This document shows, one piece after another, positions 30,496 through 41,883 of a stretch of DNA of 64,000 bases. A model generated the notes under the pieces. That model searched no databases and was not told the DNA's origin. It worked only from the letters and a program-made list of their open reading frames with translations. A program made the position numbers and the translations under genes. This DNA is from Dehalococcoidia bacterium (lineage in GTDB: Bacteria; Chloroflexota; Dehalococcoidia; Lucifugimonadales; JADFKI01): assembly GCA_963422525.1 (NCBI GenBank), contig OY730226.1:1982881-2046880 (forward strand), read 5' to 3'. Within the stretch, counting starts at the first letter, position 1, and each line of letters begins with the position of its first letter.

Positions 30496-33039
30496 CTAGG
30501 CATTATACACGCCATCCAAGTTCGCTAACACGCCTGAAAACTCATCCTCGCTGAACACAAGCTTAAAAGTGCCTTTCGCAGGACCTTCTCTAACCGTCAT
30601 ATTTCCGTAATTGTTGTAAGCGTTTTGAAGAGTTTCCAGCACGCGTTCCTTGTAATCGGTGTCAGGGCTGTCGCGCAGATGCGCGCCTTTCGTCTCGAAC
30701 ACCAGCACATGCGGCTTTCCGTCGGTTTCGCCGCCCATAGCGACGAAGTCCGGCCAGATGCGATCTCGCTTCCAGCCGCGCAGATAGTAATCACCCTGCT
30801 GCCGCACGGCGACTCGATGCCACCAACGCAGCGCTTTATGCTCGTCGAGGTAACGCGCGAAACTGCGCTCAAGATTGGAGTCGAACTGCTGAGTGTACAC
30901 AGGCTCGAACAGGCTAAGCTGTAGCGCCGACGTCCCGCCTTTTCCCGTCATCAACCCAGCATCTACAGGCGCAGGTATGTCGTAGCGCTCCACCATGCGG
31001 AAGTTAGGTTTGCCGTCTTCCAATTTTAAGTCAAAGCGGATTTCGCCCCGGCTAAGTTTGCCGCGAAATGCCCGTTCAGCCTGCTTTTCCAGCGCATCGG
31101 TTACATAGTCGCGCAACGCAAACGCCAGATATGAACGCTTGTCGTAGATCTCATCATCAGCGTCGCCGCCGGCGCGCAGTTTTTCAACCAACTTCTGCGC
31201 GATGCGCGCCGCCTGCCACGGGTTCGGCACAACATCGGACAAACGGCGCGCAAACCATGTTATCTGCACCGTCTTGTCAATATACAACTCGCGGTCGGCG
31301 TGAAACATCGGCAGAGCGTCTCCCACATCAACCGTCGCCGACTGCCACTTGGCACCGTCCCCAAAGCTGTTTTGCAGATCTGAAACCTCAATAGCGCTCC
31401 AGTCTATGCTCGGCAGGATGTGACTCTGGTAATCCAACTCGCGCCATCCGCCATTATCCTCGTGCATCACCTTCGGCAAAAATATATCCGCGTTCTTGAA
31501 CCGCTCACGCCGCTTTACGGTAACTCGCTGAAAATCATCCGCATTGCTGGTTACCGCGTCGCCCAATCCGTCCAACCCTTCCTGCTCCAACCCCAATTTG
31601 ACATGCTCGACGGCGACGCCCACCTGTGTGTTGTGGCAATACACATAGCACTGGTCAAGGGGCTCTCGTCTTGTGCGCTGGGCGTGCGGCTGACGCATCA
31701 CGCGTCCCACAAGCTGCGTTATGGCGGTTTTCGCACGCGTGTTGTCCAGCATCACCAGCAAGTACGCGAATGGGCAGTCCCATCCCTCTTTCAGCGCGTC
31801 CTTAGTGATTATCCAGCGCACCGGCGAAAACTCCGACAGCAAGTCCAGTCCTGCGATTTCGTCCGTCTGAGACGATTTGACCTTCACGGCTTCAGCGGCA
31901 ACGCCCAAGTTCTGGATCAAGTAGTCACGCGCATCCTCGGAGTGAATGCGGTCTCCGTCGCGCTGATTCTTGCCGGTGCGTTCCACGCGCACTACGGCGA
32001 TAGGGCGAATGTACCTTCCTTCGCTCTGTTGCAACGACTGCGCCTCATCGTTAAGCCGTTCAAGCTCATCGTGCGCCTGCTGCAGCGTGTAATGCCAATC
32101 GGCGTTAGTGAAGGATGTCACCTGCACCGGCAGTTTTATCATCTCCTCCTGTTTCAATTCTACGCCGCTGATGTCCACCAGCAGGTTGCTAATTCCCCGA
32201 TTGGGCGTAGCGCTCAATTCAATGACGAGACGAGGATCGATACGATTGACGGAGCGCGCGAACTCTCTTTGCGTCTTATCGGATTTTCCATAAGCCTTGT
32301 GCGCCTCGTCGAGAATGACTACGGGACGCAGCATTTTGAACACATTGAATAGGCTGTGCTTTACAGGTCCGCCCTGTGAAGATCGATCCAGATCCGGATA
32401 ATCCTTTAGAAGGCTGCCATCCCCAAGCAAGTCATCGCTATCCGGGAACAGCGTGGGATAGCGCCCCGAATCTCGGAACATTCGCAGAAACTCTCTGCCC
32501 TTCTGACGATTGGCGGCCGGCAACATCAGCAGCATCACGCACATATAGTTAGCAGTGTCCGCCAGCGTGAACGGCTCGTCCTTTTCCAGAAGTTTCACTC
32601 GACCGCCGCTGCCGCGCTCCAGCATCTGCCGATAGGGATGTTCTCGATTCCAGAGGGCGGCTTTGGTCTGCTCGTATATGGCGCGACTCGGAGTTATCCA
32701 CAGCGTAAGCCCCGTCGGACGGTTCAGTCGTTCCAGCGTCGCAGCGGCGAGCAGTGTCTTGCCTCCGCCGGTCGGCACTTTAAGGCATGCATGCGGAATA
32801 GGACGACCGGCTTCATCGGTGCGGCTCACATATTCGCCGGCGCTCTCCGCAACGCCGCCGGAATCCGCCAATCGTTTCCATGCGCTTTTGGGATAGTTAC
32901 GCACATCATCCGGGACGTCCAGGCCGGCGGCTTGCAAGGCTGTTACGGCGGTTTTCGCTTGCAGCCGCGCCGTCTCCAGCGCGTCGCGCCAGCGCGTGAA
33001 AGATTCCAAGGCAGCGAGCTGATACTCTTTCAGTTCCAT
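30496..33039 (-). CDS. res: type III-like restriction enzyme Res subunit (SF2 DEAH helicase with C-terminal PD-(D/E)xK nuclease)
   Basis: Helicase motifs VPTGGGKT (I), VILDEAHKA (II), ELSATP (III) and QLVGRVMRQP (VI). The C-terminus carries WPDFVAM...VLVFETKG, a PD...ExK nuclease motif. Confidence 0.85.
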   Translation of the reverse strand: MELKEYQLAALESFTRWRDALETARLQAKTAVTALQAAGLDVPDDVRNYPKSAWKRLADSGGVAESAGEYVSRTDEAGRPIPHACLKVPTGGGKTLLAAATLERLNRPTGLTLWITPSRAIYEQTKAALWNREHPYRQMLERGSGGRVKLLEKDEPFTLADTANYMCVMLLMLPAANRQKGREFLRMFRDSGRYPTLFPDSDDLLGDGSLLKDYPDLDRSSQGGPVKHSLFNVFKMLRPVVILDEAHKAYGKSDKTQREFARSVNRIDPRLVIELSATPNRGISNLLVDISGVELKQEEMIKLPVQVTSFTNADWHYTLQQAHDELERLNDEAQSLQQSEGRYIRPIAVVRVERTGKNQRDGDRIHSEDARDYLIQNLGVAAEAVKVKSSQTDEIAGLDLLSEFSPVRWIITKDALKEGWDCPFAYLLVMLDNTRAKTAITQLVGRVMRQPHAQRTRREPLDQCYVYCHNTQVGVAVEHVKLGLEQEGLDGLGDAVTSNADDFQRVTVKRRERFKNADIFLPKVMHEDNGGWRELDYQSHILPSIDWSAIEVSDLQNSFGDGAKWQSATVDVGDALPMFHADRELYIDKTVQITWFARRLSDVVPNPWQAARIAQKLVEKLRAGGDADDEIYDKRSYLAFALRDYVTDALEKQAERAFRGKLSRGEIRFDLKLEDGKPNFRMVERYDIPAPVDAGLMTGKGGTSALQLSLFEPVYTQQFDSNLERSFARYLDEHKALRWWHRVAVRQQGDYYLRGWKRDRIWPDFVAMGGETDGKPHVLVFETKGAHLRDSPDTDYKERVLETLQNAYNNYGNMTVREGPAKGTFKLVFSEDEFSGVLANLDGVYNA

Positions 33040-33051
33040 CGTCTATCACTC

Positions 33052-33276
33052 TTACTCTTCGGGCTTCCGCTGCGGTTCGGCAAGCGAAATACCCATCTCG
33101 CGGGCGCGCCGCTCCAAACGTTCTTCACGCTCAGCAATCTCCTGATACGCCCGCGCGTAACCTTGTTTGACCCCCGCTTCGATACCCCTTTCGATACCTT
33201 CTTCAATCCCTTCTTCGCGCGCCTCCAACCACAACTTTCTGCGCCATTTACGCCTTTGATCAAGCGCCCAAAACAT
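33052..33276 (-). CDS. truncated duplicate of the C-terminal coiled-coil half of the 148-aa protein
   Basis: 74 aa, nearly identical to residues ~71-148 of the 33383..33829 product but lacking the TM region and one GIEx unit. Probably a by-product of the duplication. Confidence 0.35.
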   Translation of the reverse strand: MFWALDQRRKWRRKLWLEAREEGIEEGIERGIEAGVKQGYARAYQEIAEREERLERRAREMGISLAEPQRKPEE

Positions 33277-33280
33277 AAGC

Positions 33281-33370
33281 CTAACTCCTCTTCACCTGCA
33301 CCTTATCCAGCGCATTGCGCCAGCGCATGAAAGATTCCAAGGCAGCTATCTGATACTCTTTCAGTTCCAT
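33281..33370 (-). pseudogene. orphan duplicated res 5' fragment
   Basis: Encodes MELKEYQIAALESFMRWRNALDKVQVKRS*. The first ~21 codons match the res N-terminus MELKEYQLAALESFTRWRDAL. Confidence 0.6.
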
Positions 33371-33382
33371 CGTCTATCGCTC

Positions 33383-33829
33383 TTACTCCTCCCGCTTCCG
33401 CTGCGGTTCGGCAAGCGAAATGCCCATCTCGCGGGCGCGCCGCTCCAAACGTTCTTCACGCTCAGCAATCTCCTGATACGCCTGCGCGTAACCTTGTTTG
33501 ACCCCCGCTTCGATACCCTTTTCGATACCCCTTTCGATACCCTCTTCAATCCCCTCTTCGCGCGCCTCCAACCACAACTTTCTGCGCCATTTACGCCTTT
33601 GATCAAGCGCCCAAAACATAAGCCTAACTCCTCCCTCAGTCAGCACGGCGATCATCCCGTACAACGCTACCCCCAAGTCCACCAGCGTCGCCGCAGTCCG
33701 CAAACTTGCTTGCGTCTGCCATACTCCCTGCTCCGACCAGTATGTCAACAGGGCCGTCACCGCGAACACTCCGAAAGGGACGAACATCGCATGACGGCGA
33801 ATCCAACGCGTCTCATCTGAACCGTCCAT
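33383..33829 (-). CDS. small membrane protein with charged coiled-coil tail containing GIEx tetrapeptide repeats
   Basis: Two hydrophobic helices, then KWRRKLWLEAREEGIEEGIERGIEKGIEAGVKQGY..EREERLERRAREMG. Its stop lies 12 nt upstream of the duplicated res start. Confidence 0.5.
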   Translation of the reverse strand: MDGSDETRWIRRHAMFVPFGVFAVTALLTYWSEQGVWQTQASLRTAATLVDLGVALYGMIAVLTEGGVRLMFWALDQRRKWRRKLWLEAREEGIEEGIERGIEKGIEAGVKQGYAQAYQEIAEREERLERRAREMGISLAEPQRKREE

Positions 33830-33923: not shown

Positions 33924-33995
33924 TCAGATGCATCTCATACGGAAGCTGGCAGAAGGCTACTCCCATTGCAGTGAGCTCGCACTGACCGATACTTC
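33924..33995 (-). pseudogene. relic copy of the mod 3' end
   Basis: 33928-33995 aligns to mod 34497-34566 with 8 mismatches and a 2-nt gap (~86% identity). It encodes ..IGQCELTAMGVAFCQLPYEMH.. versus the Mod C-terminus YIGQRELTAMGITFCQLPYEMHR*. It abuts the hicA stop. Confidence 0.7.
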
Positions 33996-34215
33996 AAAGA
34001 GCAACGCAAAACTCACTAACCGTGAGCCCCGCAGCACGAATAAGGCTTCGTAGAGTACCCTTAGCGATTGTCCGAGAATTTGGCACAGAAAGAGTGGCGT
34101 GTTCACCTGATTTAGTTAGGATTATATGACTGCCTCGTTGCCGCGCGACATTCCAGCCGAAGCGTTGAAAATTGCGCGCCGTTTGCGCTCCGCTGAGCGT
34201 AAGCAGTTGCGGCAT
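33994..34215 (-). CDS. hicA: HicA-family mRNA interferase toxin
   Basis: The 73-aa sequence LSGAQTARNFQRFGWNVARQRGSHIILTK..TLSVPNSRTIAKGTLRSLIRAAGL is the YcfA/HicA signature. The ATG overlaps the hicB TAA (TAATG). Confidence 0.85.
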   Translation of the reverse strand: MPQLLTLSGAQTARNFQRFGWNVARQRGSHIILTKSGEHATLSVPNSRTIAKGTLRSLIRAAGLTVSEFCVAL

Positions 34216-34421
34216 TACACCATCACTTCCAGCTGGCGCGTCTCAATAGTAAGCGGCATACCTTGCTCTGCTCTCACCTCAATGCAATCAACTATCGCCT
34301 GCCGTATGTTCTCCAAAGCTTCATCTTTGGTTATGCCTTGGCTAACGCAACCGGGGATAGACGGGCATTCAACAATCCAAACGCCATCCTCGTCCCTGTC
34401 TAATGTTACGGTTAGTTTCAT
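34215..34421 (-). CDS. hicB: HicB-family antitoxin
   Basis: MKLTVTLDRDEDGVWIVECPSIPGCVSQGITKDEALENIRQAI matches the HicB N-terminal RNase H-like fold. A GGAGG SD lies 6 nt upstream of the ATG at 34421. Confidence 0.85.
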   Translation of the reverse strand: MKLTVTLDRDEDGVWIVECPSIPGCVSQGITKDEALENIRQAIVDCIEVRAEQGMPLTIETRQLEVMV

Positions 34422-34490
34422 TGAGCGCCTCCCTGAGCGCGGTGTACGCATTTATCTGTGGCAAGATAATAGCACAACCCATTGCTACTC

Positions 34491-36409
34491 TCACCTATGC
34501 ATCTCATACGGAAGCTGGCAGAATGTTATCCCCATCGCCGTAAGCTCGCGCTGACCGATGTACTTCCCCGGCGCAAACACGACCGCCTGCCTGCCATTCC
34601 CGCGACCGGCGCTAATGCGCCTTGCTCGCTCCGCGTTCAGCATCGCCTCATTGCCGCCCAGCCAGCCGACATCAGCCTCATACAGCAGGTAATAGTCCGT
34701 GGTTTCACTCCTATAAAACAGCCCGTCCTCGTTCTGCGGCGACAGCGAGGCTTCGCCGGCTGACACCCCCGACGCCGTGTGCAGCAGGTACGCCGCCAGC
34801 GCAGAGTACGATGGCAGCGCATCCCCCGTCAGCATCGACTCAACATCTATCGGCTCGCCCAGTTCGCAGTAGGTAAACGACCCGCCAAGCCCTTCTTGCA
34901 GCGACTTGTCACGCGCGTTGGGAACGCCATTGATGACCCGCTGCACGCGTTCGGCGGTAATGGTGTCTGCGTAGTCCTCGCACTCTACGAGTATGAACTT
35001 GCGGCTGCCGCCATCCTCTTTGTTGAGCGCAAGCACGGCGTGCGCTGTTGTGCCGCTGCCCGCGAACGAGTCGAGGATGATGTCGCTCTTATCCGACCCT
35101 ATCCGCAAAATCTGCTGAACCAAAGTATGCGGCTTCGGGTTCTGGAAAGGGCTGTCACTATCATCGAATATCTGCAAGACGATCCTGCGTGCATTCGTGG
35201 TGCTTCCAACCGCATCGTTTCCCCAAATGGTTATTGGAACTACGCCTTGCTGCACATCTTGCAAGTATCGTTTTAGCTGCGGTCTGCCGTCTCCATTTTT
35301 GCCGAAATAGATGCGCTTGTCCGCAAGCCAAGCAGCCATCGTTTCTCGATTAGTAATCCAGCATCTCCCCAGAGGTGGATTATGCACTTCACCTGTATTG
35401 GGATTTGTGAGCGGATAGTCGTAATCCGAGGTGTAGGATTTTACGCTTAAATTATCTGTCGCCCATAATCCTCGCCCATCGTGGTCGTCATGCCGATATG
35501 CTTTATTATGGGCGTCCGTGCGAGGCAACAAGTTGCGCCGCCAACCGACAGCGTCATCCTTTGTTTGTATTCGACGCTTGGCGTAGCACAGAACGAAGTC
35601 GTGGTTATCAGAGAAGTACTTGGCGTCATTCTGCGGGCTGTTCTTCTTCTGCCAGATGATGTTCGTTACAAAATTATCAGCCCCAAAAATCTCATCCATC
35701 ATCATGCGCAGGTGATGCTGCTCGTTGTCGTCTATGGATATGAATATAGCGCCATCGTCCGACAGCAGCTCCCGCAGCAGATGCAGCCTCGGCCACATCA
35801 TGCACAGCCACTTGTCGTGCCGTTCCAAATCCTCCCCGTCAACCGGCCTGTTCTCCGCAAGCCACTGCCGCATCAGCGGGCTGTTCACGCGGTCGTTATA
35901 GACCCACCCTTCTTTGCCGGTGTTGTACGGCGGGTCTATGTAGATGCACTTGACGCGCCCGGCGTAGCGCGGCAGCAGCGCCTTGAGCGCGTGCAGGTTG
36001 TCGCCGTGGATTATTAGGTTGTCGTCAGTCAAGCCTTCAGATAAAATATCATGACCGACCGACCGACCGACCGACCGACCGACCGACCGACCGACCGACC
36101 GACCGACCGACCGACCGACCGACCGACCGACCGACCGACCGACCGACCGACCGACCGACCGACCGACCGACCGACCGACCGACCGACCGACCGACCGACC
36201 GACCGACCGACCGACCGACCGACCGACCGACCGACCGACCGACCGACCGACCGACCGACCGACCTCATCGCCTTTGAAAGAACATTTGCACTATCAGGCG
36301 GCCGAGAACCAAGAACCGACCTCTCCGCGTCCGGCTCCAACGGGCGGTATGGCACACTCAAATGGTGCGCGTAAATGTGCTGTTTCCCCTTAAAGTCCAG
36401 CGTAGGCAT
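34491..36409 (-). CDS. mod: type III-like beta-class DNA methyltransferase Mod, split into two reading frames by an internal tetranucleotide repeat tract
   Basis: The N-terminal piece (36409..36029, GAGGAG SD) encodes MPTLDFKGKQHIYAHHLSVPYRPLEPD.., a Mod-type LxWxGK N-terminus, followed by (RSVG)n. The catalytic piece (36032..34491, TTG) encodes NLIIHGDNLHALKALLPRYAGRVKCIYIDPPYNTG (motif IV) followed by DSFAGSGTTAHAV (motif I). The frames differ by one 4-nt unit. Confidence 0.85.
36053..36264. repeat. perfect simple sequence repeat (GACC)53, which is (GGTC)53 on the coding strand
   Basis: 212 nt of uninterrupted 4-nt periodicity, counted from the sequence and confirmed by the 17.5 TDRP units of the + strand shadow ORF. 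Flanked by TCAT on both sides. Confidence 0.98.
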
Positions 36410-36593
36410 ACTTCGCTCCTCTAATCCTCAGCAGTCTGATAACGCTCTATCTTGACCGCCGCCCACCAAAATCGAAAGCGAACCTGCGGTTTCCGGTTCA
36501 TTTCTGCGTGTCCGAATGCCCATAGCAGCCGGCGTGTGAACTCTGTAGAACTATTCGACGATCATTGCCGGCTCCGCGCGGATAAGATGTGTT

Positions 36594-37364
36594 CTAGCCG
36601 ATGACGGCGACAGGCTTGAAGCGGTCGAACTCAGGCGGCAGCAACGGCAAAATTTGCTCCGGCGACATGCCGTACACATCGTAGTTCATGTAGAGCTGAT
36701 CCAGCACATCTATGAGGCGCACAACACCGCCGGACGGACGCTGATTGCCGCCGCCGCCCGCAACACCCTGCTTCAACTTGCGTGTCCGGGGGTCAGCGTA
36801 AAGCAGATGCGCCAACTGGATAACGCCCTTCGAGCGAAATGCTTCCGGTTTGCCCACCAGCCTGTCGGTGAAATGCGTGAGAGAGTTCACAGGTTCGTCC
36901 AGCATATACCAAGCGCTGCGTTGATGATGAAAATATATCTCGTAGGAAAGCATCAGCCTATGGGCAAAGCGCCGTTTCTCACCGCGTCCTTCCGCGCTAG
37001 GATCTGTAACAAAAGGCACATCGCTGCTACCCAAGCGCGGGTTGCCGTCCGCATCCTTGCGCGCCACCGTATCGAAGTAGAACATCCCCAGCCACGACCA
37101 CAGCCGATAGTTTTCGATGACCCGCGACGCAGGCAGCGGGCTGAGACGCTCCATCAAGTACAACGCAGCTTCGCGGCGTGTATCGAAACGCTGCCGCTCT
37201 ACATACACAGCCGGCTCCACCCATTCGGCGTGCAGAGAGTTCGTCAGCAACGAGTCCGGGAACGGGCTATATTTGCCCTCGCGCAACGACGCTAAGTAAT
37301 CCTTGGCGACGCGAATGCCCACATCTGTCAGTTCCCGAACCCTATAAGATTGTTGAGTAGTCAT
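36594..37364 (-). CDS. uncharacterised protein, tandem paralog A (256 aa)
   Basis: Shares its N-terminal ~110 aa (..LSPLPASRVIENYRLWSWLGMFYFDTVARKDADGNPRLG) and C-terminal ~45 aa (..RLIDVL.QL.MNYDVYGMSPEQILPLLPPEFDRFKP) with paralogs B and C. The central region is divergent. Confidence 0.8.
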   Translation of the reverse strand: MTTQQSYRVRELTDVGIRVAKDYLASLREGKYSPFPDSLLTNSLHAEWVEPAVYVERQRFDTRREAALYLMERLSPLPASRVIENYRLWSWLGMFYFDTVARKDADGNPRLGSSDVPFVTDPSAEGRGEKRRFAHRLMLSYEIYFHHQRSAWYMLDEPVNSLTHFTDRLVGKPEAFRSKGVIQLAHLLYADPRTRKLKQGVAGGGGNQRPSGGVVRLIDVLDQLYMNYDVYGMSPEQILPLLPPEFDRFKPVAVIG

Positions 37365-37401
37365 TGCTGTGCCTCGCGCCGGTTTTTGGATTGTCCCCGC
37401 A

Positions 37402-38190
37402 CTAAGAATACCCTACTGCTGAAGCGGGCTTGAAGCGGTCGAACTCAGGCGGCAACAGCGGCAAGATCTGCTCCGGCGACATGCCGTACACATCGTAGTT
37501 CATGTTGAGCTGACCAAGCACATCAATGAGACGCGGCAGACTCCCCGGCGGCGCCGTTACCCTGTCATCACCGTAGCTGCCCGCTTTCAGACGATTCCCT
37601 TGACTATCCGCGTACAAAATATGCGCCAGTCCCACAATTCCCGCAGAGCGAAAGAGCTCAGGCGCGCTCGCGAGCCGAAGAGTGAATGTGCTCAGGGAAT
37701 TGACAGGCTCTTCGAGCATAAACCAAGCGCCCTCACTATGCCTTGTATAGATTTCGTAAGCCAGCATCAGCCTATGTGCGTATCGCCGCGTTTCTCCCCG
37801 TCCGGCTTGCGCCCCCGGGTTCGGGTCTATCACATAGGCTATGTCGGGATCTCTTCCCAAGCGTGGATTGCCGTCCGCATCCTTGCGCGCCACCGTATCG
37901 AAGTAGAACATCCCCAGCCACGACCACAGCCGATAGTTTTCGATGACCCGCGACGCTGGCAGCGGGCTAAGACACTCCGTCAGATACAACGCGGCGTCGC
38001 GGCGCGCGCTGAACTGCTGCTGCGTCACATACACCGCCGGCTCCACTTCCGTGGCGTACAGCGGGTTCGTCAGCAGCGAGTCCGGGAACGGGCTATATTT
38101 GCCCTCGCGCAACGACGCTAAGTAATCCTTGGCGTCGCGAATGCCCATATCGGTCAGTTCCCGAACCCTATAAGATTGTCGAGTAGTCAT
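37402..38190 (-). CDS. uncharacterised protein, tandem paralog B (262 aa)
   Basis: Same family as A and C. The 37-nt intergenic spacer is conserved with the B-C spacer. Confidence 0.8.
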   Translation of the reverse strand: MTTRQSYRVRELTDMGIRDAKDYLASLREGKYSPFPDSLLTNPLYATEVEPAVYVTQQQFSARRDAALYLTECLSPLPASRVIENYRLWSWLGMFYFDTVARKDADGNPRLGRDPDIAYVIDPNPGAQAGRGETRRYAHRLMLAYEIYTRHSEGAWFMLEEPVNSLSTFTLRLASAPELFRSAGIVGLAHILYADSQGNRLKAGSYGDDRVTAPPGSLPRLIDVLGQLNMNYDVYGMSPEQILPLLPPEFDRFKPASAVGYS

Positions 38191-38227
38191 CGCTACGCCT
38201 CACGCCAGTTTTTGGATTGTCCCCGCA

Positions 38228-39016
38228 CTAAGAATACCCTACTGCTGAAGCGGGCTTGAAGCGGTCGAACTCAGACGGCAGCAGCGGCAAAATCTGCTCC
38301 GGCGACATGCCGTACACATCGTAGTTCATGTAGAGCTGACCAAGCACATCAATTAGACGAGGCAAACTCCCTGTCGGAGCCGTTACATCGTTGGTCCAAC
38401 CCCACCCAGATCTCATGCCACCCGTCTTTCTATCGATATACAGCAGGTGAGCCAACTCCACAATTCCTCTTGCACGGAAAATCTCCGGAGCGCTTGTAAG
38501 ACGCATCGTGAACCTTCCTAATGAATTAACAGGCTCATTCAGCATGTACCAGGCATTTTCAGCGTGGTGGGTATAGATTTCGTAAGCCAGCATCAGCCTA
38601 TGTGCAAATCGTCTAGTCTCTCCCCATTTAGCCTGTGAGTTGGCTGCAGGGTCTGCCACATACGCAACATCTGGATCTCTGCCCAAGCGCGGGTTGCCGT
38701 CCGCATCCTTGCGCGCCACCGTATCGAAGTAGAACATCCCCAGCCACGACCACAGCCGATAGTTTTCGATGACTCGCGACGCAGGCAGCGGGCTAAGACA
38801 CTCCGTCAGATACAACGCAGCGTCTCGACGGACGCTGAACTGCTGCTGCGTCACATACACCGCCGGCTCCACTTCCGTGGCGTACAGCGGGTTCGTCAGC
38901 AGCGCGTCCGGGAACGGGATAGACTTGCCCTCGCGCAACGACGCTAAGTAATCCTTGGCGTCGCGAATGCCCATATCGGTTAATTCGCGGAGGCGCAAAC
39001 TTTGGTGCGTCGTCAT
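38228..39016 (-). CDS. uncharacterised protein, tandem paralog C (262 aa)
   Basis: Same family as A and B. Its ATG lies 4 nt after the stop of the 254-aa gene, with GGGGAGG upstream. Confidence 0.8.
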   Translation of the reverse strand: MTTHQSLRLRELTDMGIRDAKDYLASLREGKSIPFPDALLTNPLYATEVEPAVYVTQQQFSVRRDAALYLTECLSPLPASRVIENYRLWSWLGMFYFDTVARKDADGNPRLGRDPDVAYVADPAANSQAKWGETRRFAHRLMLAYEIYTHHAENAWYMLNEPVNSLGRFTMRLTSAPEIFRARGIVELAHLLYIDRKTGGMRSGWGWTNDVTAPTGSLPRLIDVLGQLYMNYDVYGMSPEQILPLLPSEFDRFKPASAVGYS

Positions 39017-39020
39017 CCCG

Positions 39021-39785
39021 CTACCTCCCCACCGCCGCCAAATAGCGGTCGCTTGGATGAAACCGCTCGTTGCTGAATGTGCTCACCGCCCCGTCAATCC
39101 ATTCTTTCATATCCGTCTTCGTCTGCTCATCGTTAAGCGACAAGACCGGCATCTCCGCGTCATAGAAATCCCTAACGAAGCCGATCCAGTGCGCCCAGTC
39201 GCCCTCACCGTCCGACGGATCGAATTCGTCGATTATCAGCGCCTGCGTCAGAATAAGCCGCAGCGTCTCAGGAATCACAAGCGCGCGGAAAGCGCCATCC
39301 TCGCGCACGACTGCGCTGATCCCGGGGATGTTCTTGTTCACTTGCATTATCGGTGTGTCATTGCCGCCTCCAAAATCTACCCGCCAAACCTCTTTGTCCA
39401 AATCCTTTTCTTCCAAGTGCAGCAAAGACTTCGTTCCGTCCGCGCCGGCGTATGAAGGCTTTATATTGTCTGCAAGAGCGAGTATGCGCCGCGATCCGTC
39501 GGGGTCTAGCGCCATTATGCGAAACTTCGGAGCCTTAGGCATACTGGTCAGATAGCAATCCGTCGGCGGCATAGGACTTCCCGCCGTACCCCAATCGAAC
39601 CTGCGCGATGAGCGTTCGCGCTTCGCTTCTATCACAATCGGCGCATCAGGCGGCAGATCCAAACGACTGAGATCCACCTTTGCGATAAACTGCGGGTCCT
39701 CATCTTCGTCGGCATCCTGGATCTCTACGCTAACCATACTCTCTTCTATGCGTTTGCGCTGAGTGTAGTTAAACCTGCGTATCAT
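39021..39785 (-). CDS. uncharacterised 254-aa protein, translationally coupled to the GHKL ATPase gene
   Basis: Long ORF overlapping the upstream gene by 17 nt. Acidic N-terminus. No motif recognised. Confidence 0.7.
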   Translation of the reverse strand: MIRRFNYTQRKRIEESMVSVEIQDADEDEDPQFIAKVDLSRLDLPPDAPIVIEAKRERSSRRFDWGTAGSPMPPTDCYLTSMPKAPKFRIMALDPDGSRRILALADNIKPSYAGADGTKSLLHLEEKDLDKEVWRVDFGGGNDTPIMQVNKNIPGISAVVREDGAFRALVIPETLRLILTQALIIDEFDPSDGEGDWAHWIGFVRDFYDAEMPVLSLNDEQTKTDMKEWIDGAVSTFSNERFHPSDRYLAAVGR

Positions 39786-41883
39786 TGTCCGCGCCCCCTA
39801 GTTCCATATCTCCTGAAAGTTCGTCTAACTTCACATACACATCGCGGTTGGAGTCAAAGCCCTGCACACTGAGATCGAAGTCGCGTGGGTCTGATATGTA
39901 CAACCGCATCTCATTGTCCTGCATCTTTGCGTCGAATGTCGCCGCGGTATCTTTGACTGCGCTTGGCGCCGCTTCAGACGGCGGCGCGAAAATGCCGCGC
40001 AGCAGCTTGCCGAATGTCGCCTTTTCCGCAGTTCCGATCTCGGCATTCGCCATCATGACTTCACAGCCCTTGTGCGTGATATTGAGATCTCGCAGTCGAA
40101 AGTCGTTCGGCGTGTAGCTCTTAATTGGGTTGCCGCGCGGCGTCTGATAGGCAACCTGCAACAGAGCGTACTCCGGAGGGTTCTCGCTGTCAGTCGGGAT
40201 TCTTATGCGAAAACCCGTGCCGGAATGTGTGTTGCTTATCTCAAATTTCATAGGATTGCTGTTGATGTCCACCTCTTGTCTGCCGGCAGTGGCGGCAGTT
40301 CCCGTTCTCTGCCCTCTTGAAGCAACCCGACTATTCGGCTCTACATAGAAAAATATGTCCGCGAATGCGTCCTTTTGTATGCTTTCGGTTGGAGTTCGTA
40401 GCGCCTGCAACAGCTTGCGCGTCGCATTCCGAACCGCGGTTATACGCCGCGGCGCCGCTACCCATCGGTCCGTAACTCTATGAACACTCGTCCTCCAACT
40501 CGTATGCGCCGGCGGTTCGGAGTCCCGCAGCATAGCGGCTAGGGGTTCCCTCTCATGCACCGTCAACAGCGTCCTAGCGCTTGTTTGCCCAATAAAGTTC
40601 ATCTCGGATATGGACAACGTGCCGCGCACATAGTAGTCATGCCCTTCCCTCAGCGCATCGTCTTTCTGAATGTACAAGTTGAACTTAGTCTCTTCGCGCG
40701 CTCCATTCTTCCTTTGAACATCCGTGGTTACGCGAAACGGCAACAGCTCATGCGCGTTATACCTACGGCGCAGCCTTTTAATGCCAGCGTAGCCTTCGTC
40801 GTTCATCCGCTCGATGTCCGCAACAAGTATATCTATGTAGTCGCCGTCTGAAAGCGCCATCTTCTGGCGGCACATCTCAAATAGATGCTGATAGCCCTCA
40901 ACGCTGCGTTCGCCGCTGTCTTCTAGGTCGGCTCGCTCAAGAACGGAATCGATAGTATCGGCGGTAATTTCTATCGGCGGCGAGCCGTCGCCCTCGTCAA
41001 GCATTACCTCCAGACTGCGATTAATGATGGCATAAAAGTAGTTGTGGATGATGGCGGCGAGTATTTTGGGCGTTTCCAGCCTCTCGTCTTCGTCGTCTAT
41101 ACGCGGAAACGGGATGATGATAGACAAGCCCGACTCGTCCTTATCGCGCCGCCATAGCCCGAAATCCGTTATGCACTCATCTATAAAAGCCTTTTGCTCG
41201 GAGACAAAGCTGTCCAGCGGCAAAGCGAACTCTTCGTCATCGAAAATGCCGAAGTAGCCATATGGCGCATGCCGCCGCCTGTTGACATCGTGCTTCTTCA
41301 GCACCGACTGCCCCATAAGCAGCGCCGCGTTATCAGAGCGCCGTCGCGTTACCGCGATATATGAGCTGATGCGAGACGCGTCCGGGAACACCCACTTGCC
41401 AAGTCCCCATGAGCCGTTCTCGCTGTCGCCCTTGCCGGAGCGCCCTACATTGCGAAAGAACCAGTAAAAGTGGTTGTTGCTAGCGGATTCCGTTTCAGAG
41501 TCGTCATACTGCTCAAATTTGCCTTCAAGCCCAACAGTGCCAGCGTCTTCTATAACTATGAACGGCAGCCCGCTCTGACTCAGATTGGCATCATCAGCGA
41601 AAAGCGCATGGACATCCATATCGCTTTGCGTTCTGAGATGCCGCGCAAGCCCTTTGATATACTTATTAGCGTAGTAAGCAGGCAGCGGTTTGTGTATGCC
41701 GCGAAGTGAGAATCGCACCCTCACGGGCGTGTTGGCGTCACAGCGAGCGTCCAACGAGTTCTGGATAGCCTCCCGCACAAGACGAGTGTTTATAGGCTCT
41801 TCATCAAAAAACTCACGCTCTATCGGCTCTTGGTTAATTTCGGCTTTACCCATCCTACGAAATCGCCATTGCGCATTTTCCAT
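39769..41883 (-). CDS. GHKL (Bergerat-fold, histidine kinase/Hsp90/MutL-like) ATPase domain protein, 704 aa
   Basis: N box LVREAIQNSLDAR, G1 box VIEDAGTVGL, G2 box GSWGLGKWVF, all within the first ~170 aa. The remaining ~500 aa have no recognised motif. Confidence 0.75.
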   Translation of the reverse strand: MENAQWRFRRMGKAEINQEPIEREFFDEEPINTRLVREAIQNSLDARCDANTPVRVRFSLRGIHKPLPAYYANKYIKGLARHLRTQSDMDVHALFADDANLSQSGLPFIVIEDAGTVGLEGKFEQYDDSETESASNNHFYWFFRNVGRSGKGDSENGSWGLGKWVFPDASRISSYIAVTRRRSDNAALLMGQSVLKKHDVNRRRHAPYGYFGIFDDEEFALPLDSFVSEQKAFIDECITDFGLWRRDKDESGLSIIIPFPRIDDEDERLETPKILAAIIHNYFYAIINRSLEVMLDEGDGSPPIEITADTIDSVLERADLEDSGERSVEGYQHLFEMCRQKMALSDGDYIDILVADIERMNDEGYAGIKRLRRRYNAHELLPFRVTTDVQRKNGAREETKFNLYIQKDDALREGHDYYVRGTLSISEMNFIGQTSARTLLTVHEREPLAAMLRDSEPPAHTSWRTSVHRVTDRWVAAPRRITAVRNATRKLLQALRTPTESIQKDAFADIFFYVEPNSRVASRGQRTGTAATAGRQEVDINSNPMKFEISNTHSGTGFRIRIPTDSENPPEYALLQVAYQTPRGNPIKSYTPNDFRLRDLNITHKGCEVMMANAEIGTAEKATFGKLLRGIFAPPSEAAPSAVKDTAATFDAKMQDNEMRLYISDPRDFDLSVQGFDSNRDVYVKLDELSGDMELGGADNDTQV

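What the first reader, a model, noticed from the sequence alone, without database searches (positions are those of the whole stretch)
36053..36264. 53 perfect GGTC tetranucleotide repeats inside the coding region of a type III-like mod gene: candidate phase-variable methyltransferase in a non-pathogen context
The + strand carries 53 uninterrupted GACC units (212 nt). Upstream on the coding (-) strand, an ORF with a strong SD (GAGGAG) starts at 36409 and encodes MPTLDFKGKQHIYAHHLSVPYRPLEPD.., the LxWxGK-type N-terminus normally found a few dozen residues ahead of the NLIIxGDNLxxLK/DPPYNTG block of type III Mod proteins. That block begins just downstream of the tract but in another frame. The start 36409 and the downstream frame anchor 36032 are 377 nt apart, so the halves are out of frame by exactly one unit. 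54 or 51 units would give a single ~640-aa Mod with an internal (GRSV)n linker. The assembled 53 units stop at TGA 36031-36029, and 52 or 55 units stop right after the tract. A 4-nt unit is never frame-neutral, and a long perfect tract is the classic slipped-strand substrate used by phase-variable mod genes (phasevarions) of Haemophilus, Neisseria, Helicobacter and Moraxella. Because type III Res needs Mod for target recognition, switching would toggle both restriction and the methylome. The surrounding genome looks environmental rather than host-adapted, which would be an unusual setting for such a switch.
Basis: partly seen in the sequence, partly recalled or inferred. Interest (0 to 1): 0.8.

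Follow-up and report, generated by a model that had tools for sequence, protein, structure and literature searches.

The report
Slippery-repeat on/off switch in methylase gene
A perfect 53-copy four-base repeat splits a DNA-methylase gene of an uncultured marine-type Chloroflexota bacterium out of frame, and relatives carry other slippery repeats at the same spot, so it is very probably a random on/off switch of a well-known kind found in a new organism.

Summary
Window 36053-36264 is (GACC)53, perfect, and is the only notable simple repeat in 64 kb. It lies inside a type III mod gene on the minus strand, between a conserved 48-codon N-terminal module (ATG 36409) and the methyltransferase core. 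With 53 units the halves are out of frame; any n divisible by 3 gives one protein (54 units = 640 aa). Homologues of 538-565 aa cover both halves without a tract, so the tract is an insertion in a naturally length-variable linker. Near-identical loci in other assemblies carry GGTC runs of 193, 177 and 114 nt, and a relative of another lineage (62% GC) carries 21 nt. Other relatives carry C15/16/18/28, (AG)27, (GCCA)6 or G8/9 at the same linker, 3 in frame and 10 out. Both halves are under purifying selection (dN/dS 0.04-0.17), res is intact, and alleles differ mainly in the central target-recognition region. This is the signature of a phase-variable type III Mod. The organism is an uncultured Chloroflexota (SAR202/Dehalococcoidia-like). 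The kind is already known, including in environmental species (Atack 2018). This is a new, unusually long member with a convergent repeat hotspot. Switching within a population was not testable here.

The parts
36053..36264 (-). (GGTC)53 on the coding strand, (GACC)53 on the + strand. This is the hypermutable tract inside mod. In frame it encodes (GRSV)n.
   Evidence: perfect, 212 nt; the same repeat at the same site with runs of 193, 177, 114 and 21 nt in related loci.
36265..36409 (-). mod 5' segment: ATG 36409 and 48 codons of the conserved N-terminal module plus the start of the linker (MPTLDFKGKQHIYAHHLSVPYRPLEPDAERSVLGSRPPDSANVLSKAM).
   Evidence: the module is present and contiguous with the core in more than 100 homologues (M1, G8, K9, H16, S31 invariant); dN/dS 0.04-0.26 between repeat-bearing alleles.
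36416..36421 (-). Shine-Dalgarno-like GAGGAG, 6 nt upstream of ATG 36409.
   Evidence: Read directly.
36029..36031 (-). TGA that ends the N-terminal ORF (126 aa) in the assembled 53-unit state. It overlaps TTG 36032-36030 (TTGA).
34491..36052 (-). mod 3' segment in the methyltransferase frame. It comprises the linker end HDILSEGL, NLIIHGDNL, DPPY (35925-35936), the target-recognition region (about 35073-35672), FAGSG motif I (about 35052-35072), the C-terminal domain and the stop at 34491-34493. It is annotated elsewhere as a 513-aa protein starting at TTG 36032.
   Evidence: PF01555, 5.5e-39. PADLOC MTase_III, 1.4e-167. PDB 6k0w and 4zcf Mod; dN/dS 0.14-0.17; central variable region.
34215..34451 (-). 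hicB-like antitoxin gene, inserted between mod and res.
   Evidence: PF15919, 1.5e-08.
33994..34215 (-). hicA toxin gene.
   Evidence: PF07927, 4.8e-14.
33928..33990 (-). Duplicated copy (87%) of the mod 3' end. It marks the insertion of the hicBA cassette.
   Evidence: family D4. The uninterrupted end is seen in P0121.
30496..33039 (-). res: type III restriction subunit, 847 aa, apparently intact.
   Evidence: PF04851. PADLOC REase_III, 3.2e-188, over residues 1-816; dN/dS 0.17-0.26 against orthologues of the same length.

Best explanation
This is a contingency locus: a type III restriction-modification system whose mod gene is switched on and off by slipped-strand mispairing in an intragenic (GGTC)n tract. 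The tract sits in a naturally length-variable linker between a short conserved N-terminal module and the methyltransferase core. When n is divisible by 3, one Mod is made with a (GRSV)n loop (54 units = 640 aa). It methylates its target and, together with Res, restricts unmodified DNA. At any other n, translation from ATG 36409 stops at or just after the tract, no full-length Mod is made, and Res cannot act because it depends on Mod. The assembled state (53) is OFF, one unit short of ON. Shown here: the anatomy, the family assignment, homology of both halves, tract-length differences between strains, convergent repeats at the same site with ON and OFF examples, purifying selection on both halves, and mosaic target-recognition alleles. 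Inferred: high-frequency reversible switching within a population (about 1e-3 per division if the Haemophilus calibration is extrapolated), the loss of methylation and restriction in OFF cells, and the benefit, which would be bet-hedging between defence against phage or foreign DNA and its costs, and/or epigenetic heterogeneity.
For: (1) Perfect (GGTC)53 inside the ORF; only n mod 3 = 0 gives a full-length protein. (2) Type III Mod and Res are confirmed by profile, sequence and fold. (3) More than 100 homologues of 538-565 aa cover both halves contiguously. Their linker varies from about 7 to 50 aa, so the site tolerates insertions. (4) The same repeat at the same site has run lengths of 212, 193, 177 and 114 nt in four loci at 92-98% nucleotide identity, with a shifting left boundary, and 21 nt in a more distant relative. 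(5) Different motifs sit at the same linker in other genomes (GC 56-65%): C28, C16, C15, C18, (AG)27, (GCCA)6.5 and G8/G9. C15, C18 and G9 are in frame and the rest are out, giving 3 ON and 10 OFF, close to the 1:2 expected for a random switch. (6) Distant relatives lack such repeats: 2 marginal hits in 76 loci and 2 in 79. (7) dN/dS is 0.14-0.17 for the 513-codon half and 0.04-0.26 for the N-terminal 32 codons between alleles that are all out of frame, so both halves are still selected as protein. (8) Alleles are at least 90% identical in residues 1-120 and 321-513 but only 20-42% identical in residues 121-320, the allele architecture of known phase-variable mod genes (PMC1976455). (9) H. influenzae Rd Mod is functional with 40 in-frame AGTC units (PMC1976455). 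The mutation rate rises linearly with tract length, u = 2e-5*L - 2e-4 (PMC3546556), which extrapolates to about 8.6e-4 at L = 53.
Against: No read-level data were available, so heterogeneity within one population is not shown. All five GGTC-bearing alleles seen are OFF, and no protein with a (GRSV)n linker turned up in the 5.8-billion-protein collection. With five alleles this is not significant ((2/3)^5 = 0.13). The ON form would carry about 72 extra residues, more than any natural linker in the family, and tolerance of that length is untested here. One relative (L089) has a short tract and a truncated mod, so decay does happen. An intact Res raises the unsolved question of how unmethylated OFF cells survive switching ON.
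Confidence: 0.78

Rival explanations
1. Dead gene. A microsatellite expanded in a mod gene that is no longer used, and the frame state has no consequence.
For: The assembled gene and all four other GGTC-bearing alleles are out of frame. In L089 the mod body is also truncated. L004 and L088 are orphan copies with no res within 5 kb.
Against: There are no stops or frameshifts other than the tract in 48 + 513 codons in any of four alleles, despite dS of 0.24-0.70. dN/dS is 0.04-0.17 in both halves. Res is intact and constrained. In-frame repeat-bearing relatives exist. The tract is perfectly pure. Five different motifs recur at one site, which is hard to explain without selection.
Confidence: 0.08
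2. The tract does not switch Mod off. An N-terminally truncated Mod (513 aa) is made from TTG 36032, for example by termination-reinitiation at the TTGA overlap in the 53-unit frame. The locus would then be constitutive, or a three-state switch: full-length, truncated, none.
For: TGA 36031-36029 overlaps TTG 36032-36030. The overlap is conserved in all four long GGTC alleles (WIN, L003, L004, L087). In three of them (WIN, L003, L004) the N-terminal ORF is in the frame that terminates there. The 513-aa product keeps all catalytic motifs. 8 of 10 OFF alleles are in this frame state.
Against: The N-terminal module is invariant at several positions across the family and is under purifying selection in the split alleles, so it is needed. 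In the model of a close homologue, residues 24-32 form a confident strand (pLDDT about 88) next to the core. There is no proper SD spacing before the TTG. TTG is simply the Leu codon of GLT in the ON frame. Repeat-bearing relatives with other motifs have no such overlap or restart codon. The 8:2 bias is what deletion-biased slippage predicts (36 events of -1 unit against 18 of +1; PMC3546556).
Confidence: 0.07
3. The tract is real, but its assembled length is a consensus or assembly error, and the true dominant allele is in frame.
For: Long perfect repeats are hard to size. A related contig (L003) begins 83 nt upstream of the tract, which may reflect assembly trouble there. Homopolymer examples such as C28 are especially error-prone.
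Against: Four independent long contigs span GGTC runs of different lengths with unique flanks on both sides. Contig names suggest long-read assemblies, which is my inference. A miscount would change the state called here but not the nature of the locus.
Confidence: 0.07

Closest known systems
modA of Haemophilus influenzae and Neisseria (phase-variable type III Mod, AGCC/AGTC tetranucleotide tract; phasevarions)
   Same: Both are type III beta-class N6-adenine Mod with a res partner. [quoted passage not shown] Both have conserved 5' and 3' regions with a variable central recognition region that defines alleles (one search compared). Tract length differs between strains in both.
   Different: The repeat unit is different (GGTC). 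The tract is longer (53). The organism is an uncultured Chloroflexota, not a host-adapted pathogen. Res is apparently intact, whereas it is often inactivated in modA strains. A hicBA cassette lies between mod and res. No expression, methylome or regulon data exist, so a 'phasevarion' in the strict sense is not shown.
Repeat-containing type III mod genes of environmental bacteria in the REBASE survey (Atack et al. 2018, PMC5909438)
   Same: It is the same class of observation: simple repeats above hypermutability thresholds in mod ORFs of non-pathogens such as Clostridium thermocellum and Thermosynechococcus. That study inferred at least 25 independent origins.
   Different: GGTC/GACC is not mentioned in the main text of that paper, and its supplement is not held. 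Here one Mod clade shows at least five motifs at a single linker site, seen only in long-read metagenome assemblies. The survey reported mostly single, non-diversified alleles in environmental species, whereas this clade has several recognition-region alleles and a second locus.
[quoted passage not shown]
   Same: Sequence and fold homology of Mod (4zcf E = 1.6e-50; Foldseek 1e-27), with weak but specific homology of Res. The gene order is mod then res. Res depends on Mod, which is established knowledge.
   Different: EcoP15I has no repeat tract. In EcoP15I mod and res are adjacent. The N-terminal region is much longer in EcoP15I.

Membership tests
Type III restriction-modification system | Mod is a beta-class N6-adenine methyltransferase: DPPY (motif IV) comes first, the recognition domain is in the middle, and FxGxG (motif I) follows. 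| tested here: met
   DPPY at 35925-35936, FAGSG at about 35052-35072, and a variable region between them. PF01555. PADLOC MTase_III, 1.4e-167. PDB Mod chains 6k0w, 4zcf and 7dsu by sequence and by fold.
Type III restriction-modification system | A Res subunit (SF2 helicase-like ATPase plus nuclease) encoded downstream of mod. | tested here: met
   The 847-aa ORF 30496-33039 has PF04851 and PADLOC REase_III at 3.2e-188 over residues 1-816. It is separated from mod by 1.45 kb holding hicBA and duplicated segments. It is directly adjacent in relatives L002, L005 and L090. The nuclease motif was not examined residue by residue.
Phase-variable mod gene (simple-repeat contingency locus) | A repeat tract within the ORF, above the length known to be hypermutable, whose unit is not a multiple of 3. 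| tested here: met
   53 perfect 4-nt units. The threshold used by Atack 2018 is 3 units.
Phase-variable mod gene (simple-repeat contingency locus) | Tract length differs between strains, with both ON and OFF states occurring. | tested here: met
   GGTC runs of 212, 193, 177, 114 and 21 nt, all OFF. Poly-C relatives: C15 and C18 ON, C16 and C28 OFF. G9 ON and G8 OFF.
Phase-variable mod gene (simple-repeat contingency locus) | Reversible length changes at high frequency within a clonal population. | not testable with these tools
   This needs raw reads or fragment analysis. Only consensus assemblies were available.
Phasevarion (phase-variable regulon) | ON/OFF switching of Mod changes genome methylation and the expression of multiple genes. 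| not testable with these tools
   No methylome or expression data exist for this uncultured organism.
Phasevarion (phase-variable regulon) | Multiple mod alleles that differ in the central target-recognition region. | tested here: met
   P0001 compared with P0055 and P0077: at least 90% identity outside residues 121-320 and 20-42% inside. blastn fails only across 35085-35670.

The most novel reading that the evidence does not exclude
The tract may be more than a frame switch. In the mRNA, (GGUC)n can fold into a roughly 100-bp G-C/G.U hairpin followed by a U-rich stretch, which resembles a terminator. In the n mod 3 = 2 state the upstream ORF ends in a TTGA stop-start overlap with the methyltransferase frame. 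Together these could make a graded or three-state device (full-length Mod, N-truncated Mod by reinitiation, or none) whose output also depends on tract length.
Probability: 0.06. Interest if true: 0.7.

Novelty: new member of a known kind. Interest (0 to 1): 0.45.

Why it matters
Random switching of type III methyltransferases is well studied in host-adapted pathogens. It has been predicted, but not studied, in environmental bacteria, and Atack et al. explicitly ask why it exists there. This locus extends the phenomenon to uncultured Chloroflexota with one of the longer tetranucleotide tracts seen in a mod gene. It also shows that one linker of one Mod clade has repeatedly acquired different slippery repeats in several uncultured lineages, while res stays intact. 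That points to population-level bet-hedging of restriction as well as, or instead of, gene regulation. Because the assemblies appear to be long-read, tract length and methylation could be read on the same DNA molecules. That would allow an in-situ test without cultivation. It is also a practical warning: gene callers split such genes and annotate a 513-aa 'methyltransferase' that probably is not what the cell makes.

Tried and rejected
It returned only relatives of 57% identity or less, not the source genome. Those 76 loci, and 79 JGI metagenome loci, were still useful as a negative control for repeats at the linker.

(2) An exact search for tract plus right flank in JGI metagenome contigs found nothing.

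(3) A protein search with the 126-aa N-terminal ORF, meant to collect tract-length variants or an in-frame (GRSV)n Mod, was swamped by unrelated low-complexity proteins. It yielded only one useful hit, P0288, which led to L089. Gene callers evidently do not call the repeat-containing ORFs.

(4) Look-up of the window's own 513-aa protein in the contig index failed, so the source sample could not be named. Taxonomy rests on SufB similarity.

A close natural homologue was modelled instead.

(6) I considered programmed -1 ribosomal frameshifting or transcriptional slippage as the reason why 8 of 10 OFF alleles share one frame. I rejected it as unnecessary: there is no slippery heptamer in GGUC repeats, the bias is not significant (p about 0.1), and deletion-biased DNA slippage predicts it.

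(7) I considered the + strand ORF 36051-36374 and dismissed it as the mirror image of the repeat.

Full report
**Observation.** Window 36053-36264 is exactly (GACC)53 on the + strand. It is perfect and 212 nt long, and the period-4 run does not extend further. It is the only tetranucleotide repeat of 3 or more units in the 64 kb. The only other simple repeats are two 5-unit CG/GC runs. The window is ordinary chromosome at 53-60% GC, with genes such as sdhA, sufB/sufD and carboxylase subunits.

**Anatomy on the minus strand.**
- GAGGAG (36421-36416) precedes ATG 36409.
- Forty-eight codons encode MPTLDFKGKQHIYAHHLSVPYRPLEPDAERSVLGSRPPDSANVLSKAM.
- Then comes (GGTC)53, then ...HDILSEGLTDDNLIIHGDNL..YIDPPYNTG...DSFAGSGTT... 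down to the stop at 34491.
- With 53 units the first ORF (126 aa) ends at TGA 36031-36029.
- With 52 or 55 units it ends directly after the tract.
- With 51, 54 or 57 units there is one ORF of 636, 640 or 644 aa carrying a (GRSV)n insert.

**Family.**
- The 3' part matches PF01555 and PADLOC MTase_III at 1.4e-167.
- It also matches the solved type III Mod subunits 6k0w, EcoP15I 4zcf and Mbo45V 7dsu, both by sequence and by fold of a modelled close homologue.
- Motif order is DPPY, then a variable region, then FAGSG, which is the beta-class order.
- The 847-aa ORF 30496-33039 is a full-length type III Res (PF04851; PADLOC REase_III 3.2e-188 over residues 1-816; a weak hit to EcoP15I Res).
- Between mod and res lie hicB and hicA, a duplicated mod 3' end, and a tandem duplication of the res 5' region. 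In relatives, res follows mod directly.

**The N-terminal piece is genuine Mod.**
- A tract-less fusion of the two halves finds thousands of homologues. The best 120 are 60-77% identical (besides the window's own 513-aa product at 100%).
- Most are 538-565 aa long and cover 100% of the query.
- Their N-termini read MPTLDFKGKQHIYAHHLTVPYRPL.PD..[RK]S, then a linker of about 7 to 50 residues, then DDNLIIHGDNL. M1, G8, K9, H16 and S31 are invariant.
- The tract is therefore an insertion into a linker that already tolerates length variation.
- In the AlphaFold model of homologue P0025, residues 24-32 form a confident strand and the linker follows it.

**Relatives.** Homologues that looked N-terminally truncated were traced to their contigs. 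Each one has a simple repeat at this same linker. Window, L003, L087, L004 and L088 have 56-57% GC. The other genomes have 56-65% GC and different neighbouring genes.

| Locus | Source and context | Repeat at the linker | State |
|---|---|---|---|
| Window | this record | 212-nt GGTC run (53 units) | OFF |
| L087 | ERZ21742353 contig_14; syntenic with the window, 93-96% nucleotide identity | 193-nt GGTC run | OFF |
| L003 | ERZ21742408 ctg5211l; syntenic, 97-98% identity | 177-nt GGTC run | OFF |
| L004 | second genomic locus, no res within 5 kb | 114-nt GGTC run | OFF |
| L088 | same second locus as L004, another sample | C16 | OFF |
| L089 | another lineage | (GGTC)5 | OFF |
| L005 | orthologue of the L089 locus | (AG)27 | OFF |
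| L001 | another genome | C28 | OFF |
| L002 | another genome | (GCCA)6.5 | OFF |
| L090 | another genome | C15, in frame, 561-aa product | ON |
| L171 | another genome | C18, in frame, 560-aa product | ON |
| L006 | another genome | G8 | OFF |
| P0002 | sister of L006 | G9, full length | ON |

- The count is 3 in-frame and 10 out-of-frame alleles, close to the 1:2 expected of a random frame switch.
- The left boundary of the GGTC tract differs between alleles, while the right boundary is fixed.
- More distant relatives (35-59% identity) in GTDB genomes and JGI metagenomes show nothing comparable: 2 marginal hits in 76 loci and 2 in 79. Short-read assemblies would tend to break at long repeats, so this control is imperfect.

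**Selection.**
- Between alleles that are all out of frame, the 513-codon half has dN/dS 0.14 (window against L087, dS 0.47) and 0.17 (window against L088).
- The first 32 codons have dN/dS 0.04 (window against L004: 10 synonymous and 2 non-synonymous changes), and 0.07-0.29 in other pairs.
- Res has dN/dS 0.17-0.26.
- There is no disruption other than the tract itself.
- A gene that was simply dead would not keep both halves clean.
- A gene expressed only from the internal TTG would not keep the N-terminal module.

**Alleles.**
- P0001 (window) is at least 90% identical to P0055 (L003) and P0077 (L004) in residues 1-120 and 321-513. It is only 20-42% identical in residues 121-320. blastn between these loci fails only across 35085-35670.
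- The window's recognition region is instead shared with L088 (92.6% DNA identity over the whole core), which sits at the second locus and carries poly-C.
- mod dS (0.47) greatly exceeds res dS (0.07) in the same pair of genomes.
- This mosaic, exchange-prone architecture matches that described for modA alleles (PMC1976455).

**Organism.**
- SufB from the window is 86-88% identical to proteins named Chloroflexi, SAR202 cluster or Dehalococcoidia MAGs.
- The window's own Mod product is on a 2.71-Mb contig present in NCBI and ENA.
- The nearest Mod relatives in GTDB genomes are from Latescibacteria and Poribacteria MAGs. I know those as sponge-associated groups. A sponge microbiome origin is therefore possible but unproven.
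- The organism is in any case not a pathogen.

**Mechanism.** Shown by sequence:
- There is a one-in-three frame code set by n.
- The assembled state is OFF, one unit short of ON.
- Length differs between close strains.

From established knowledge of type III systems and contingency loci:
- Slipped-strand mispairing changes n reversibly.
- The rate grows with length. The H. influenzae mod calibration u = 2e-5*L - 2e-4, measured for 17-38 units (PMC3546556), extrapolates to about 9e-4 per division at 53 units. This extrapolates across organisms and beyond the measured range.
- Res needs Mod, so OFF cells neither methylate nor restrict.
- H. influenzae Rd Mod is active with 40 in-frame AGTC units, so a long in-frame insert is plausible.

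Inferred:
- The benefit is bet-hedging between defence and its costs, and/or epigenetic heterogeneity.
- The excess of the n mod 3 = 2 state among OFF alleles (8 of 10) fits the 2:1 deletion bias seen in Haemophilus.

**Rivals.**
- A dead gene is disfavoured by the selection data and by the ON relatives.
- A functional truncated Mod from TTG 36032, helped by the TTGA stop-start overlap, is not excluded. It is disfavoured by conservation of the N-terminal module and by the absence of any comparable restart in relatives with other repeats.
- A mis-sized tract would change the state called here, but not the nature of the locus.

**Comparison and novelty.**
- A REBASE survey found repeats in 17.4% (662 of 3805) of type III mod genes. 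It explicitly included environmental species and inferred at least 25 independent origins (PMC5909438).
- The kind is therefore known, and the environmental setting is not in itself new.
- What is new here: the organism (uncultured Chloroflexota), the repeat unit and its length, the intact res with a toxin-antitoxin cassette inserted between mod and res, and the evidence that one linker of one Mod clade has acquired at least five different slippery motifs in several uncultured lineages.
- No paper in the held library links phase-variable methyltransferases with sponge symbionts.

**Not possible here.** Read-level heterogeneity, methylation, expression, and the identity of the source samples could not be examined.

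Noticed in passing
window 33928-34559: A hicB/hicA toxin-antitoxin pair (34215-34451, 33994-34215) sits between two copies of the mod 3' end (34497-34559 and 33928-33990, 87% identical). It looks like a cassette inserted at the end of mod. A promoter-like site (34494-34466, minus strand) lies just upstream of hicB.
   Followed up: partly
window 32962-33633: The res start (ATG 33039) with about 250 nt of upstream sequence is tandemly duplicated (32962-33290 and 33293-33633, 90-94% identical). The second copy overlaps an unassigned 148-aa ORF (33383-33829), which has only weak hits to a PADLOC 'putative invertase' model and to FliH.
   Followed up: partly
window 36594-41883, minus strand: Directly upstream of mod are four paralogous ORFs of 254-262 aa with no Pfam, NCBIfam or PADLOC match. 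Three are 71-72% identical to each other and one is 28% identical. A 704-aa ORF there matches the PADLOC candidate defence protein PDC-M33A (3.8e-24). The syntenic locus L087 has only three paralogues. This may be an uncharacterised defence module next to the R-M system.
   Followed up: partly
window 36020-36300, minus strand: As RNA, (GGUC)53 folds into a roughly 100-bp hairpin of alternating G-C and G.U pairs (-122 kcal/mol with flanks, z = -4.95). It is followed by AUGAUAUUUUAU, and the consensus scan flags this as terminator-like. The complementary (GACC)n strand does not fold comparably (z = +2.6 as DNA).
   Followed up: partly
window 36029-36032: In the 53-unit frame the upstream ORF's TGA overlaps the TTG that annotators use as the start of the 513-aa Mod (TTGA). 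The overlap sequence is conserved in L003, L004 and L087. In L003 and L004 the upstream ORF is also in the frame that terminates at it, whereas L087 is in the other OFF frame.
   Followed up: partly
L004 and L088 (second mod locus in related genomes): Related genomes carry a second mod copy without res, between a DUF1800 gene and an NHL-repeat gene. One strain has (GGTC)28 there and another has C16. L088 also has an AAA_15/AAA_21 ATPase gene and a 154-aa ORF inserted upstream of mod.
   Followed up: partly
window mod 34491-36032 compared with res 30496-33039, against L087: Synonymous divergence of mod (dS 0.47) is about seven times that of the neighbouring res (dS 0.07) in the same pair of genomes. 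This suggests old mod alleles are exchanged by recombination.
   Followed up: partly
L001 3596-3750: A 61-nt unit is repeated 2.6 times (96% identical) immediately upstream of the poly-C-bearing mod of that relative.
   Followed up: no
L089 4001-5700: In this relative, which has (GGTC)5, the mod body is truncated (fragments of 69 and 163 aa are called) while res is full length. It is an example of real decay in the family.
   Followed up: no
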